This document shows, one piece after another, positions 28,460-31,018 of a stretch of DNA of 64,000 nucleotides. The notes beneath the pieces were generated by a model. The model did not search any database and had not been told where the DNA came from. It saw nothing but the letters and a program-made list of their open reading frames with translations. The number at the start of each line of letters is the position of its first letter. The first letter of the stretch is position 1. The DNA is from a virus. Lineage: Duplodnaviria > Heunggongvirae > Uroviricota > Caudoviricetes. The translations under genes were made by a program, and so were the position numbers. Location: positions 31,599 through 95,598 of IMG/VR virus record IMGVR_UViG_2713896905_000004. One strand, given 5' to 3'.

Positions 28460-29161
28460 TTATTCTGATTCTCGCTCAAAAAATGAGCTGATAAGGGGAA
28501 GCCAATCCTCTGACACTTCGCGAGGTCGCGGTTTGCCGTGGAAAAAGATTATTCGGCAGTCTTTTGGTAATGCCCCATTCCCCCTGGAGTAACGCGCGCT
28601 CGCATATTTTGAACCAGGTTCCACAACATCGGCCTTGTAACTTACAAACCATCCTGGATACAGATCCTGAAATGCTGGTGTATCATCGCCCATAACCTTT
28701 CGTAAGAACCCCTGGTCACCCCAGCACTCAGTAGTGACACAACGAGAAATCCAACCTTCCGGATCTTGCCAGAATGAACTCCAGATATGCGCTTTAACAC
28801 TATTTGGTATCCACAGGGCACCGCTGCCACGATATTGTGGATGGTAAAAATCCCTAAGCATGGTGAAGCTGGTTGGTGGATGCTCTAGGATTGGGCGTAT
28901 ATCACCGGCAATAACCGTGTCCAAATCCAGATAGAACAGATCATCGGTTATATCCGGTCGGAACAACTCGATTTTCGCCCACCAGCCACGGCACTTTTGC
29001 CACTGGTTGATCAATGGGACAACTTTGACGCCAGGTACATGTAAACGCTTCAGGTCTGTCAGGCAAATAATTTCATAGCCTTTTGGCAGTTGATTAACCA
29101 GCCACTGCACATCGGAAGCGTTATAGTCACCACCAGAGCGAAAAACTAAAGCAATCTTCAT
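28460..29161 (-). CDS. hypothetical protein
   Basis: 233-aa ORF overlapping the next gene. Confidence 0.5.
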
Positions 29162-29850
29162 GCTGCACCATCACCTTTCACTTTCATCAATGTCAGGTTT
29201 CCGCAAAATACGGCACCAGTGTCGATATACTGCTGATTCCAGAATGTCTTCGGGCTTTTCACCGGAGTGTGACCAAAGATAAAACGATCTGCGCCCGAAA
29301 TTTCGCCACCAATATCATCCATCGAATCACTGATACGCTCGCGCGCCCAGACAACGTTGAAAAGCGGCACCTCCTTACCGAATTGGTATTCATTATCCGG
29401 ATAGTCGGCATGGGCTATAACGATAGTTTCTTGCCCCGTGTTCAACTCAATGATATAGGGCAGACGCTTTACCAGCTCCACCAGCGCCCAGGCTAATATT
29501 TCCTGATCAGTGTCCAGCATGAAGAACCATTGTCCGCCATTCATTAGCCAGTTATTCACGTTGCCATCTGGACTTAACGCATCAATCATCAGCCGCTCAT
29601 GGTTCCCCATCACTGCCCTGAACCAGGGCATCTGCAATAGTTCCAGACATTCGACATTTTCAGTACCGCGATCGATAAGGTCGCCGACCGATATCAGTAA
29701 ATCCTGCGCCGGGTCAAAATCCACACGATGGAGTTCGGACATCAGTCTGGTGTAGCAACCATGCAGATCACCAACAACCCAGACATTCCTGTATTTGGTA
29801 CCGTCGATACGGTGATAAATTGTGGGTGCCATCATGTATTCTTCAGCCAT
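29158..29850 (-). CDS. ppp: Ser/Thr protein phosphatase (lambda PPase-like)
   Basis: Metallophosphoesterase motifs GDLHG, GDLIDRG, GNHE. Confidence 0.8.
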
Positions 29851-30458
29851 TCTTTAAGAGTCATCTGCGGAATACCTCCCATTTTCCCGCATGAAACAAC
29901 GTCAATCTGTTCACGCGCAGACTGGAATAACAAAGGCAGGTGACTTAGATTTTTTGGCGTGCCGCCGGAGTGAACGCGTAGTTCTTGCGTAGCGTCAACG
30001 CCCACCAGAGCTACATGTTTGAATCCGATATGGAAAGCCAGGTTCAGAGCACCATATGCACTATTGCCGCTGGCAATTTCATTCTCATCTTCGCAAAGGC
30101 CGAAATGTGCGGACCAGCGCCACGCCCACCACTCGGGAGAATTCGTATTTTTTGGCTCCATGCCGCGTTCAGCCACACGACGGAAGCACAGAACGCCATC
30201 TCTGACTTCACGTTCTTTAACATCGGGTAGTGCCATGCAATAACAAACACCACGGCGACGGCGGCCACGACCAACGCGCCGCATATTGTCTGGCGATGGA
30301 TCAAGTGTGAAAAAATAAGAAGCGCGGTTCAGCCAGTCGATGGCCCCATTGACCGCTATAATCGGCACTCCGCGCGGCGCAACAAAGTTTGCGGCGCTTG
30401 GGCCACTGCCGACGATAATAACGCGATCACTGCCTCTAAATTTATTCTTGGGAAACAT
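29832..30458 (-). CDS. hypothetical Rossmann-like protein (GSGPS motif)
   Basis: VIIVGSGPS...[10 protein letters not shown]...[26 protein letters not shown]; paralog of the next gene. Confidence 0.5.
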
Positions 30459-31018
30459 TGAATTGCACTGCTCCTACTTGCATTCAAAATATGTAAATCT
30501 GCGTGTTTTTTGCGGGTATCCAGGAACTGCTGTTGCCATTTTGAAATAGACACCTGCGTTGGATTCCGTAGTGCTTGAGGGTGCGCGCCATGCCAATGAA
30601 GGCCGTTTTGCAGAGAACAGTCATAGCCGACTAATACCACTACTTCAGCCCCTGATTCAGCAGCCAGACTGATAGCCTGCGCGCCGCTATTTACCCCTTC
30701 CGCCGGTCCACAATATCTCCTGTACTCCAACGAAAATGATTTCGCCGCCGCCAGGTTGGCTGTCACTTTGCGGAATCTCCCTCCCGGTATGGTGGATCCG
30801 TATTGCTTCCACCATGACAAATCACCGGCGTATAAGGCATAAATGTCATCGAACATCTGCCAGGAATTGTTAACCGCGATGATTGAACAGCCAGTTTTTT
30901 CTATAGCAGCACAGTCCTCACGAGTGAGTGACGGTCCGCTACCGACACAAAAAACAGTCCTAGTCGCCCTGGGTGGTATGTTCATTCTCAGCTGCAAATT
31001 CAGCCTCCAGGCGAGCAT
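30356..31018 (-). CDS. hypothetical Rossmann-like protein (GSGPS motif), paralog
   Basis: VFCVGSGPS...IIAVNNSWQM...SGAQAISLAAESGAEVVVLVGYD; true start probably the internal MNIPP Met. Confidence 0.5.
   Translation of the reverse strand: MLAWRLNLQLRMNIPPRATRTVFCVGSGPSLTREDCAAIEKTGCSIIAVNNSWQMFDDIYALYAGDLSWWKQYGSTIPGGRFRKVTANLAAAKSFSLEYRRYCGPAEGVNSGAQAISLAAESGAEVVVLVGYDCSLQNGLHWHGAHPQALRNPTQVSISKWQQQFLDTRKKHADLHILNASRSSAIQCFPRINLEAVIALLSSAVAQAPQTLLRRAECRL

What the first reader, a model, noticed from the sequence alone, without database searches (positions are those of the whole stretch)
28460..31018. Block of putative modification enzymes including two paralogous GSGPS-motif proteins
Two adjacent paralogs (about 208 and 220 aa) share an N-terminal VGSGPS...IIAVN motif and a central SG..A....A..G..V.LVG.D motif. 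They sit next to a lambda-type Ser/Thr phosphatase and a 233-aa protein of unknown function, with a paired C1 operator at the upstream end. This may be a virion-protein or DNA modification module; the paralogous pair is unusual.
Basis: partly seen in the sequence, partly recalled or inferred. Interest (0 to 1): 0.4.

Follow-up and report, generated by a model that had tools for sequence, protein, structure and literature searches.

The report
Phage P1 three-enzyme glycosylation cassette
The flagged block is the known but functionally uncharacterised pmgN-pmgO-pmgP-ppp-pmgQ operon of a P1-like phage; three of its genes form a sugar-transferring enzyme set that recurs, sometimes fused, in many unrelated phages of Gram-negative bacteria, and what it glycosylates is still unknown.

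Summary
The window is a P1-like phage-plasmid, and the block is P1's pmgN-pmgO-pmgP-ppp-pmgQ operon on the minus strand (98.8% identical to P1).

PmgO, PmgP and PmgQ co-occur in lambdoid, HK97-like, SU10-like, 116-kb lytic and jumbo phages. They occur as natural O-P, P-Q and Q-P fusions. Extra glycosyltransferases, methyltransferases or a sulfotransferase often accompany them.

Published deletions and CRISPRi show the P1 genes are dispensable in the laboratory.

The paired C1 operators (Op86a/b) lie downstream of pmgQ and control the next operon.

Best reading: a cytoplasmic glycan-building cassette active during lytic growth. The acceptor is unresolved: phage protein about 40%, LPS or other envelope glycan about 30%.

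The genes are known. The module-level picture appears not to be described.

The parts
31159..31175 (+). Op83 (Oppp), the single C1 operator transcriptionally upstream of the block. Here it reads TATGTACTAATTAATTT.
   Evidence: Position taken from the P1 annotation. Sequence read. It has 5 mismatches to the 17-mer used as consensus and 2 differences from P1.
31179..31214 (-). Predicted sigma-70 promoter PpmgN, inside the 3' end of pmgM.
   Evidence: P1 annotation maps it to 31188-31214. A promoter-like site GCGACA-17-TAAAAT lies at 31207-31179.
30960..31115 (-). pmgN, a 51-aa acidic protein of unknown role. It was not detected in the more distant P1-like locus L090.
   Evidence: pI 4.2.
30356..31018 (-). 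pmgO, an MptE-like/Maf/CstII-like putative glycosyltransferase. The real start is probably Met12 at 30985.
29832..30458 (-). pmgP, a remote paralog of pmgO with a roughly 35-residue insertion (SPEWWxWRW). It overlaps pmgO by 103 nt in another frame.
   Evidence: hhalign against the PmgO family E=2.7e-14. Pfam MptE-like E=3.4e-4. 61 of 62 family members hit PF01973.
29158..29850 (-). ppp, a lambda-type Ser/Thr (PPP-family) metallophosphatase. It is an independent insertion, not part of the conserved cassette.
   Evidence: Pfam Metallophos 59 bits. 1G5B E=1.5e-94. Absent from all non-P1-like cassettes. Present alone in D6.
28460..29161 (-). pmgQ, a minimal GT8-like GT-A glycosyltransferase with an invariant D79-L-D81 (DxD) motif.
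28442..28458 (-). Op86a (OpmgRa) C1 operator. It belongs to the downstream pmgR-pmgS operon, not to the block.
28393..28409 (+). Op86b (OpmgRb) C1 operator, the partner of Op86a.
28406..28433 (-). An 11-bp hairpin flanked by A and U runs, lying between the two operators. It is a candidate terminator of the pmgN-pmgQ transcript and overlaps the annotated -10 of PpmgR.
   Evidence: RNA fold -13.4 kcal/mol, z=-5.7. Sequence. The terminator role is an inference.

Best explanation
The block is the C1-controlled pmgN-pmgO-pmgP-ppp-pmgQ operon of a P1-like phage.

What it is. Three of its products (PmgO, PmgP, PmgQ) form a mobile, soluble, cytoplasmic glycan-building cassette that is expressed during lytic development.

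How it most likely works:
- PmgO and PmgP are minimal (about 190-aa) Maf/CstII-type enzymes. They most likely act as a heterodimer or as consecutive steps.
- They would transfer a CMP-activated ulosonic acid. To my knowledge E. coli K-12 makes only one such donor, CMP-Kdo.
- PmgQ is a minimal GT8-type enzyme with a DxD motif. Established GT8 chemistry is retaining, so it would add an alpha-linked hexose from a UDP-sugar.
- In other phages the same trio is joined by further glycosyltransferases, sugar-type methyltransferases or a sulfotransferase, so the product is a short tailored oligosaccharide.
- Ppp is an unrelated lambda-type phosphatase that was inserted into the operon in the P1 lineage.

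Acceptor. My leading guess is phage proteins made at the same time (capsid or other virion proteins).

What is shown and what is inferred:
- Shown: gene identities, folds, paralogy, co-occurrence, fusions, and dispensability in the laboratory.
- Inferred: catalytic activity, the donors, heterodimer formation, and the acceptor.

Probabilities: that this is a glycosyltransferase cassette whatever the acceptor, about 0.75. With a phage-protein acceptor, about 0.4. The confidence given for this explanation is the second figure.
For: Identity: 98.8% identical to P1 78810-82610, with the P1 and P7 annotation carried across.

Folds:
- The PmgO family profile gives weak but collinear matches to CstII at the GxGPS and SG...G.D motifs.
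- 61 of 62 PmgP-family members and 36 of 37 PmgO-family members hit PF01973 at E<=0.1. Relative P0258 passes Pfam's own threshold.

Paralogy: hhalign E=2.7e-14, with a negative control at 0.25% probability.

Module conservation. The trio is adjacent in:
- Citrobacter phiNP (L004);
- Pseudomonas, Zhongshania and Gilvimarinus HK97-like prophages (L086, L098, L116);
- an SU10-like contig (L085);
- lambdoid elements (L115, L118);
- the 116-kb phage IME392 (L113);
- the jumbo phage XacN1 (L114);
- Brevundimonas and Sinomicrobium contigs.

Natural fusions: O-P (P0051), P-Q (P0219, P0290), Q-P (P0310), Q-P-methyltransferase (P0270) and methyltransferase-P (P0307).

Accessory tailoring enzymes: a fourth GT-A, a GT-B enzyme, methyltransferases of the TylF, FkbM and Methyltransf_24 types, and a sulfotransferase.

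Solubility: none of the five proteins has a hydrophobic segment.

Donor plausibility: Maf enzymes use CMP-Kdo in E. coli (PMC11339370).

Evidence for a phage-protein acceptor:
- In three HK97-like elements the cassette sits in the tightly packed late head operon, just downstream of the major capsid gene (directly in L086 and L098; after two short ORFs in L116).
- It also occurs in large phages isolated as free virions (IME392 from sewage; jumbo XacN1), where conversion of a lysogen seems unlikely. Their lifestyle was not checked here.
- The closest solved relatives of PmgO (Maf) and of PmgQ (Gat1, GlyE, glycogenin) act on protein-linked glycans.
Against: - No activity, donor or acceptor has been measured for any family member.
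- The P1 proteins score below Pfam's gathering threshold for PF01973 (23.4 and 20.9 bits against 34.6).
- PmgQ hits no Pfam model at all.
- PmgO and PmgP lack the large flanking domains that Maf carries. I take these to be its acceptor-recognition domains, but their role is unclear.
- The fold is shared with the MptE and thiamine pyrophosphokinases.
- In-frame deletions and CRISPRi knock-down of pmgO, pmgP, ppp and pmgQ give no plaquing defect, and the deletions no antirestriction defect. PmgO, PmgP and PmgQ are not discussed among the virion proteins.
- The text of the P1 virion LC-MS/MS paper and of a 2026 P1 cryo-EM paper does not mention glycans.
- The cassette moves between phages with unrelated virion proteins, which fits a generic (host) acceptor better.
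- P1 (my own knowledge) and phiNP both adsorb to LPS outer-core glucose, which is built by host GT8 enzymes.
Confidence: 0.4

Rival explanations
1. The enzymology is the same, but the acceptor is a host envelope glycolipid (LPS core, or an undecaprenyl-linked O-antigen, ECA or capsule intermediate) at the cytoplasmic face of the inner membrane. The cassette would remodel or cap the cell-surface glycan, for example masking the phage's own LPS receptor. That would limit superinfection or the loss of progeny on cell debris.
For: - CstI/CstII act on LOS (family knowledge).
- There are faint WaaZ (Kdo III transferase) similarities: TIGR04437 at E=0.1 for PmgP and PF27901 marked faint for P0051.
- Every named host is Gram-negative.
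- PmgO and PmgP have no separate acceptor-recognition domain.
- phiNP uses LPS core GlcII as its receptor (PMC6456863). P1 uses core glucose (my own knowledge).
- A generic host acceptor would explain transfer between unrelated phages.
- PmgO and PmgP are basic (pI 9.0 and 9.5), like WaaZ and WaaJ.
Against: - In P1 the operon is annotated as C1-repressed, so it should be silent in lysogens.
- In HK97-like elements the cassette lies inside the late head operon. It also occurs in IME392 and XacN1, isolated as free virions.
- Surface LPS would be only partly replaced within one lytic cycle (inference).
- hhalign to K-12 WaaZ gives only 14-19% probability.
- No family member hits the WaaZ Pfam model at E<=0.1.
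- PmgQ lacks the C-terminal membrane-association region of WaaO/WaaJ/LgtC (233 aa against 311-339 aa) and is acidic (pI 6.2).
Confidence: 0.3
2. PmgO and PmgP are not glycosyltransferases. They would be MptE/thiamine-pyrophosphokinase-type pyrophosphokinases that use ATP to pyrophosphorylate a primary alcohol on a small molecule or a sugar. PmgQ would then act on the product.
For: - The Pfam family that both proteins touch is named for the MptE kinase.
- The size of PmgO and PmgP (about 190-200 aa) is that of MptE (216 aa), not of Maf (632 aa).
Against: - The best and longest structural match is Maf (161 aligned residues against 126 for MptE).
- Sequence-profile hits in the PDB are to CstII, CstI and Maf only, none to MptE or thiamine pyrophosphokinase.
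- The constant partners are glycosyltransferases and sugar-tailoring enzymes, including covalent fusions to a GT8 domain.
- No folate or thiamine genes were seen in any context.
Confidence: 0.1
3. The block is a DNA (or nucleotide) hypermodification module, as the first reader also suggested.
For: Phages do glycosylate DNA bases, and the genes lie in an early, repressor-controlled operon.
Against: - No hydroxymethyl-pyrimidine synthase or other base-modification gene accompanies the cassette in any of the contexts examined.
- P1 DNA is not known to be glycosylated (my own knowledge).
- The deletions do not change antirestriction.
- The closest solved structures are not DNA glycosyltransferases.
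Confidence: 0.03
4. The proteins are morphogenetic or structural head-assembly factors, as the historical names imply (pmg for 'putative morphogenetic', and P7 hdmA-D for 'head morphogenesis').
For: The annotation labels in the P1 and P7 records, and the position among tail and head-completion genes.
Against: - Enzyme folds are predicted with high confidence.
- The single-gene deletions plaque normally.
- The proteins are not discussed among the virion proteins of the P1 proteome.
- The same trio occurs in phages with quite different virion architectures.
Confidence: 0.02

Closest known systems
Maf (motility-associated factor) flagellin nonulosonic-acid O-glycosyltransferases, PF01973/DUF115 (structure 5MU5)
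   Same: - Same Pfam superfamily.
- Both are cytoplasmic enzymes that use CMP-activated ulosonic acids. Some Maf enzymes accept CMP-Kdo in E. coli.
   Different: - Maf proteins are 630-670 aa, with N- and C-terminal domains whose role remains unclear. PmgO and PmgP are about 190-200 aa and consist of the core domain only.
- There is no flagellar or nonulosonic-acid biosynthesis context.
- PmgO and PmgP always come as a divergent pair together with a GT8 enzyme.
Campylobacter CstI/CstII sialyltransferases (CAZy GT42)
   Same: - Collinear weak sequence matches at the N-terminal G-x-G-P-S loop and the S-G...G-x-D motif.
- PHROG and RefSeq already label PmgO 'alpha-2,3-sialyltransferase'.
   Different: - The sequence hits are not significant (E 0.05-0.8).
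- An equivalent of the catalytic His188 is not established.
- The C-terminal membrane-association region is absent.
- To my knowledge E. coli K-12 makes no CMP-Neu5Ac, so the database label is an over-specific guess.
MptE 6-hydroxymethylpterin pyrophosphokinase and thiamine pyrophosphokinases
   Different: Fewer residues align. There are no sequence-profile hits. The genomic partners are glycosyltransferases rather than cofactor-pathway genes.
GT8 retaining glycosyltransferases (Gat1, GlyE, glycogenin, LgtC, WaaO/WaaJ)
   Different: - It is below detection for Pfam Glyco_transf_8 (no hit at E<=1).
- It is a minimal 233-aa enzyme with no C-terminal membrane-binding or acceptor domain.
- Its donor and acceptor are unknown.
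Virus-encoded virion glycosylation sets (mycobacteriophage capsid and tail-tube glycosylation; chlorovirus PBCV-1 capsid glycan enzymes such as A64R)
   Same: - They are virus-encoded sets of cytoplasmic glycosyltransferases plus methyltransferases, often placed among structural genes.
- The existence and layout of the mycobacteriophage systems is from my own knowledge; papers mentioning them are listed.
   Different: - The enzyme families differ: no Maf/CstII-like pair has been reported there, to my knowledge.
- The hosts here are Gram-negative.
- No glycosylated virion protein has been demonstrated for P1 or any carrier of this cassette.
Bacteriophage lambda Ser/Thr phosphatase (NinI / lambda PPase, 1G5B)
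   Same: Ppp aligns over its full length at E=1.5e-94. It also matches PHROG 246 'NinI-like'.
   Different: It sits inside a glycosyltransferase operon only in the P1 lineage. No functional link to the cassette is evident.

Membership tests
Pfam PF01973 MptE-like (formerly DUF115 / MAF_flag10) | HMM score at or above Pfam's gathering threshold (34.6 bits). | tested here: not met
   PmgO scores 23.4 bits and PmgP 20.9 bits. However, 36 of 37 PmgO-family and 61 of 62 PmgP-family members match at E<=0.1, and relative P0258 scores 44.1 bits. These are therefore remote members of the superfamily rather than members by Pfam's own cut-off.
Pfam PF01973 MptE-like (formerly DUF115 / MAF_flag10) | Rossmann-like fold shared with Maf and MptE. 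| tested here: met
   [not shown]
Maf flagellin glycosyltransferases | N- and C-terminal domains flanking the catalytic core, and a flagellar or nonulosonic-acid gene context. | tested here: not met
   PmgO and PmgP are about 200 aa against 632-666 aa for Maf. No flagellar or CMP-sugar synthesis genes were seen in any of the neighbourhoods examined.
CAZy GT42 (CstI/CstII sialyltransferases) | Significant sequence similarity, including the catalytic His188 region. | tested here: inconclusive
   Only collinear sub-threshold hits (E 0.05-0.8) at the GxGPS and SG..G.D motifs. Invariant histidines exist (PmgO H141 and H143; PmgP H173), but they do not align with the region holding His188 in the HMMER alignment.
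CAZy GT42 (CstI/CstII sialyltransferases) | Use of CMP-Neu5Ac as donor. | not testable with these tools
   This needs an enzyme assay. That K-12 lacks CMP-Neu5Ac is from my own knowledge.
MptE / thiamine pyrophosphokinases | ATP-dependent pyrophosphoryl transfer, and a cofactor-pathway gene context. | tested here: inconclusive
   [not shown]
CAZy GT8 (retaining GT-A glycosyltransferases), for PmgQ | GT-A fold with a DxD metal and nucleotide-sugar binding motif. | tested here: met
   [not shown]
CAZy GT8 (retaining GT-A glycosyltransferases), for PmgQ | Match to Pfam Glyco_transf_8 (PF01501). | tested here: not met
   PmgQ has no Pfam family at E<=1 and no NCBIfam hit. It matches only PHROG 1962 'glycosyltransferase'.
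PPP-family metallophosphatase, lambda phosphatase type, for Ppp | Full-length homology to lambda PPase and a Metallophos domain above threshold. | tested here: met
   1G5B E=1.5e-94 over residues 11-229. PF00149 scores 59.3 bits against a cut-off of 21.5.
P1 C1-repressor operators | A 17-bp asymmetric site resembling the 17-mer I used as consensus (ATTGCTCTAATAAATTT, from memory), at the positions annotated in P1. | tested here: met
   28393-28409 (+) and 28442-28458 (-) each have 3 mismatches and a perfect ATTGCTCTAATAA core. They correspond to OpmgRb/OpmgRa, which control pmgR-pmgS. Op83 at 31159-31175 has 5 mismatches here.
Conserved PmgO-PmgP-PmgQ cassette (defined here) | Co-occurrence and adjacency of all three families outside P1-like phages, and natural gene fusions. 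| tested here: met
   All three are present in L003, L004, L085, L086, L092-L096, L098, L099, L104, L105, L113-L116 and L118. Fusions are P0051, P0219, P0290, P0310 and P0270.

The most novel reading that the evidence does not exclude
Phages of Gram-negative bacteria, including the textbook phage P1, carry a widespread portable cassette: a pair of Maf/CstII-like enzymes plus a GT8 enzyme, with optional methyl- or sulfotransferases. On this reading the cassette O-glycosylates virion proteins in the cytoplasm with a short Kdo-containing, tailored glycan built from host CMP-Kdo and UDP-sugars. That would be virion glycosylation of a kind so far documented mainly for mycobacteriophages and giant viruses. 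It would have been overlooked in P1 because it is dispensable on laboratory hosts.
Probability: 0.25. Interest if true: 0.7.

Novelty: new variant of a known kind. Interest (0 to 1): 0.45.

Why it matters
P1 is one of the most used phages in genetics, yet a whole repressor-controlled operon still carries the placeholder name "putative morphogenetic function".

The analysis turns that placeholder into a concrete, testable proposal. The proposal is a three-enzyme glycosylation cassette that is shared, and sometimes fused into one protein, across lambdoid, HK97-like, large-genome and jumbo phages of Proteobacteria and Bacteroidota.

If the acceptor is a virion protein, it would extend phage virion glycosylation to Gram-negative hosts. 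That bears on immune recognition and stability of therapeutic phages.

If the acceptor is LPS, it would be receptor remodelling during the lytic phase.

Either way it offers two small, possibly Kdo-transferring enzymes of interest for glycoengineering.

It also corrects over-specific database labels: 'alpha-2,3-sialyltransferase', 'norphogenetic protein' and 'head morphogenesis'.

Tried and rejected
1. Single-sequence PDB searches with PmgO and PmgP gave only chance hits. The PmgP family profile also found nothing.

2. A link to WaaZ (Kdo III transferase) was pursued from a TIGR04437 hit (E=0.1) and a faint PF27901 hit. hhalign of both family profiles against K-12 WaaZ gave only 14-19% probability. 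No family member hits the WaaZ Pfam model. The link was kept only as a faint lead.

3. An attempt to model the natural O-P fusion P0051 with a joint alignment failed. MAFFT placed both families on the C-terminal half, so PmgO and PmgQ were modelled separately and PmgP was not modelled.

4. The IMG/VR scan with the PmgP profile returned only near-identical P1 loci. Diversity came instead from the species-genome scan, GenBank phages and encoding-contig look-ups.

5. The PADLOC defence models gave no hits.

6. Isoelectric points were compared with those of the Waa enzymes, to separate membrane-peripheral from cytosolic enzymes. The result did not discriminate.

7. The afdb50 fold library was unavailable. 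The BFVD viral library showed only that uncharacterised MptE-like proteins are common in uncultured phages and giant viruses.

8. Literature searches found no functional study of pmgO, pmgP or pmgQ or of this cassette. The 2004 P1 genome paper is not in the library.

9. The DNA-modification and structural-protein readings were rejected for the reasons given under the rival explanations.
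Full report
**What the window and the block are**

Megablast of 28000-31800 finds 19 phage records covering the stretch almost completely. P1 matches at 98.8% identity, and P7, SJ46 and RCS47 at similar levels.

Carrying over the P1 and P7 annotation, the block is the minus-strand operon:
- pmgN, 30960-31115;
- pmgO, 30356-31018;
- pmgP, 29832-30458;
- ppp, 29158-29850;
- pmgQ, 28460-29161.

In P7 the same genes are called hdmA, hdmB, hdmC, ppp and hdmD ("head morphogenesis").

The rest of the window is a mosaic P1-like phage-plasmid, closest to SJ46 and vB_EcoM-Ro157c2YLVW.

**Checking the observation**

The N-terminal motif VGSGPS...IIAVN is exact in both proteins. A version with relaxed spacing matches both.

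Pairwise BLASTP sees only the N-terminal 36 residues (E=0.004). I therefore built family alignments from database homologs: PmgP as A1 (62 sequences) and PmgO as A3 (37 sequences). Profile-profile comparison gives 98.2% probability, E=2.7e-14, over 164 columns spanning nearly the whole proteins. PmgP carries an extra segment of about 35 residues. The same test against the PmgQ family gives 0.25%. PHROG cross-hits agree with the paralogy. The pair is therefore truly paralogous, but anciently diverged.

The phosphatase is a close lambda PPase homolog (E=1.5e-94 to 1G5B).

The "paired C1 operator" is real, at 28393-28409 (+) and 28442-28458 (-). It is Op86b/Op86a, however. It lies downstream of pmgQ with respect to transcription and is annotated as controlling pmgR-pmgS.

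The operator upstream of the block is the single Op83 at 31159-31175. It lies next to the predicted promoter PpmgN. In this window it differs from P1 at two positions and has five mismatches to the 17-mer I used as the operator consensus.

**What the proteins are**

PmgO and PmgP both touch Pfam PF01973 (MptE-like, the former DUF115/Maf family), but below the curated threshold. Of the family members, 36 of 37 (PmgO) and 61 of 62 (PmgP) do so at E<=0.1. One relative passes the threshold (P0258, 44.1 bits).

- SteA, thiamine pyrophosphokinases and eukaryotic GT29 sialyltransferases.

Family profiles give weak but collinear matches to CstII, CstI and Maf at the G-x-G-P-S loop and the S-G...G-x-D motif. 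They give none to the kinases.

Six columns are invariant across all 100 aligned sequences of both families. By position these are the Asn of AVN, the Asp of LD/GD, a Trp, the Ser of NS, and the Gly and Asp of VG.D. Each family also has its own invariant histidines. Both paralogs therefore look catalytically competent. That is an inference.

None of the five proteins has a membrane-like hydrophobic segment.

**The module**

Outside P1-like elements, the three families travel together:
- Citrobacter rodentium phage phiNP: between the lysis genes and the terminase (L004).
- Pseudomonas, Zhongshania and Gilvimarinus HK97-like prophages: in the head operon just downstream of the major capsid gene, directly in the first two and after two short ORFs in the third (L086, L098, L116).
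- An SU10-like contig: after the lysis genes (L085).
- Two lambdoid elements: next to the Q antiterminator or the lysis genes (L115, L118).
- The 116-kb phage IME392 (L113).
- The 385-kb Xanthomonas jumbo phage XacN1 (L114).
- Contigs from Brevundimonas, Commensalibacter, Methylophilaceae and the Bacteroidota genus Sinomicrobium.

Natural fusions exist in several combinations:
- PmgO-PmgP (P0051);
- PmgP-PmgQ (P0219, P0290);
- PmgQ-PmgP (P0310);
- PmgQ-PmgP-methyltransferase (P0270);
- methyltransferase-PmgP (P0307).

Accessory genes interleaved with the trio include:
- a fourth small GT-A enzyme;
- a GT-B group-1 glycosyltransferase;
- methyltransferases of the TylF, FkbM and Methyltransf_24 types;
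- a Sulfotransfer_2 enzyme.

Ppp accompanies the trio only in P1-likes. Phage D6 has ppp alone in a different neighbourhood. Ppp is therefore an independent insertion.

A search of all 1.84 billion cluster representatives finds 637 PmgP-type clusters at E<=0.001. The family is modest in size but widely spread.

**What is known experimentally**

In-frame deletions of pmgN, pmgO, pmgP, pmgQ and ppp were made by Gonzales et al. (PMC9024508). [quoted passage not shown] The other knockouts showed no plaquing or antirestriction defect. PmgO, PmgP and PmgQ are not discussed among the virion proteins.

CRISPRi scored pmgO, pmgP, ppp and pmgQ as non-essential (PMC10695390).

No paper in the library assigns them a function.

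**How it most likely works**

The constant association of two Maf/CstII-like enzymes with a GT8 enzyme, their fusions, and the tailoring enzymes all point the same way. This looks like a cytoplasmic glycan-assembly line active during lytic growth.

No cassette examined carries sugar-nucleotide synthesis genes, so the donors must be host metabolites. To my knowledge the only CMP-ulosonic acid in E. coli K-12 is CMP-Kdo, and Maf enzymes are documented to use it in E. coli (PMC11339370). UDP-hexoses would serve PmgQ. These donor assignments are inferences.

The acceptor is not determined.

For phage proteins:
- The cassette is inserted in tightly packed late head operons just downstream of the capsid gene in three independent elements.
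- It is present in large phages isolated as free virions (IME392, XacN1).
- The nearest solved relatives (Maf, Gat1, GlyE, glycogenin) act on protein-linked glycans.

For LPS or another envelope glycan:
- GT8 and CstII relatives build LPS and LOS cores.
- All named hosts are Gram-negative.
- PmgO and PmgP have no acceptor-recognition domain.
- The cassette moves between phages with unrelated virions.
- Both P1 (my own knowledge) and phiNP (PMC6456863) adsorb to outer-core glucose.

I put the phage-protein acceptor at about 0.4, the envelope-glycan acceptor at about 0.3, a pyrophosphokinase function for PmgO and PmgP at about 0.1, and DNA modification or a structural role at a few percent each.

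**Comparison with what is known, and novelty**

The genes themselves are known and are already machine-labelled: "alpha-2,3-sialyltransferase", "norphogenetic protein" and "glycosyltransferase" in RefSeq. The folds are known families.

What I did not find described is the module: a conserved, portable and sometimes fused cassette of a Maf/CstII-like pair plus a GT8 enzyme in phages of Gram-negative bacteria.

I file it as a new variant of a known kind (phage-encoded glycosylation cassettes). It is not a member of Maf proper, because the flanking domains are absent. It is not a member of GT42 proper, because sequence significance and the catalytic histidine are not established.

Interest is moderate. 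It does, however, make a concrete and cheap experiment possible on a model phage.

Noticed in passing
window 28406-28433 (-), between Op86a and Op86b: An 11-bp hairpin flanked by A and U runs (-13.4 kcal/mol, z=-5.7). It overlaps the annotated -10 of PpmgR. Read-through transcripts from pmgQ would contain the whole hairpin and could terminate. Transcripts started at PpmgR would contain only its 3' half. It may be a terminator nested in a promoter-operator region. The simple terminator scan did not list it.
   Followed up: partly
window 31140-31175: Op83 reads TATGTACTAATTAATTT here, against CATGCACTAATTAATTT in P1. One change (C to T) falls in the conserved GC core. The 19 bases on its low-coordinate side also differ from P1. 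C1 control of the pmgN-pmgQ operon may therefore be weaker in this variant.
   Followed up: partly
window 30356-30458: pmgO and pmgP overlap by 103 nt in different reading frames. The same DNA encodes PmgO's C-terminal helix and PmgP's N-terminal VGSGPS nucleotide-binding loop. phiNP shows a similar overlap of about 90 nt, other phages have 11-37 nt, and one contig has a true in-frame fusion (P0051).
   Followed up: partly
window 30985-31018: The annotated pmgO start (ATG at 31018, overlapping pmgN by 59 nt) is probably too far upstream. Homologs begin about 12-20 residues later, and model residues 1-15 have pLDDT below 50. Met12 (ATG at 30985) is the likelier start.
   Followed up: partly
window 26317-26823 (-): Pap, annotated 'putative acid phosphatase', matches the phosphatase domain of polynucleotide kinase-phosphatase (Pfam HAD_PNKP, E=8e-12) better than the acid phosphatase family. 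That suggests a nucleic-acid end-healing role or a similar one.
   Followed up: no
window 31182-31760 (-): PmgM, just upstream of the block, has a VRR-NUC nuclease domain at its C-terminus (Pfam E=3e-4; PHROG 5702 'Holliday junction resolvase'). It is another 'putative morphogenetic' gene that looks enzymatic.
   Followed up: no
window 39602-41357 (-): Four tRNA genes: Met/CAT at 39602-39677, and a tight Thr(TGT)-Tyr(GTA)-Arg(TCT) cluster at 41109-41357. From memory, the P1 reference carries three tRNA genes of different identity, so this variant may have a different tRNA set.
   Followed up: no
window 1-7214: This stretch does not align to the two P1-type records listed (MH422554, MH445380), whose matches start at 7215. 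It does match SJ46-type P1-like phage-plasmids, whose annotation for the matched stretch of the window (1-25000) includes a transposase and DNA methylases. It is a mosaic or cargo region.
   Followed up: no
L116 6579-7193; L098 8570-9139; L105 8646-9272; L110 8200-8775; L114 6630-7946; L113 6713-7570: Cassette relatives carry different tailoring enzymes between or next to the three core genes: a Sulfotransfer_2 enzyme, methyltransferases of four different families (one, of the TylF type, fused to the GT8 domain), and a GT-B glycosyltransferase. This suggests lineage-specific glycan structures.
   Followed up: partly
L003 (Serratia plymuthica chromosome) 4500-17800: Adjacent pmgQ-like and pmgP-like genes lie next to a phage lysozyme. 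Two separate pmgO-like copies flank two Big_1-domain proteins and a lipoxygenase. This is an unusual, possibly degraded, prophage arrangement.
   Followed up: no
L117 6001-7298: A PmgP-PmgQ pair without PmgO sits in an apparently non-phage chromosomal context, between short-chain dehydrogenase, TetR and MFS transporter genes. This hints that parts of the cassette can be domesticated by bacteria.
   Followed up: no
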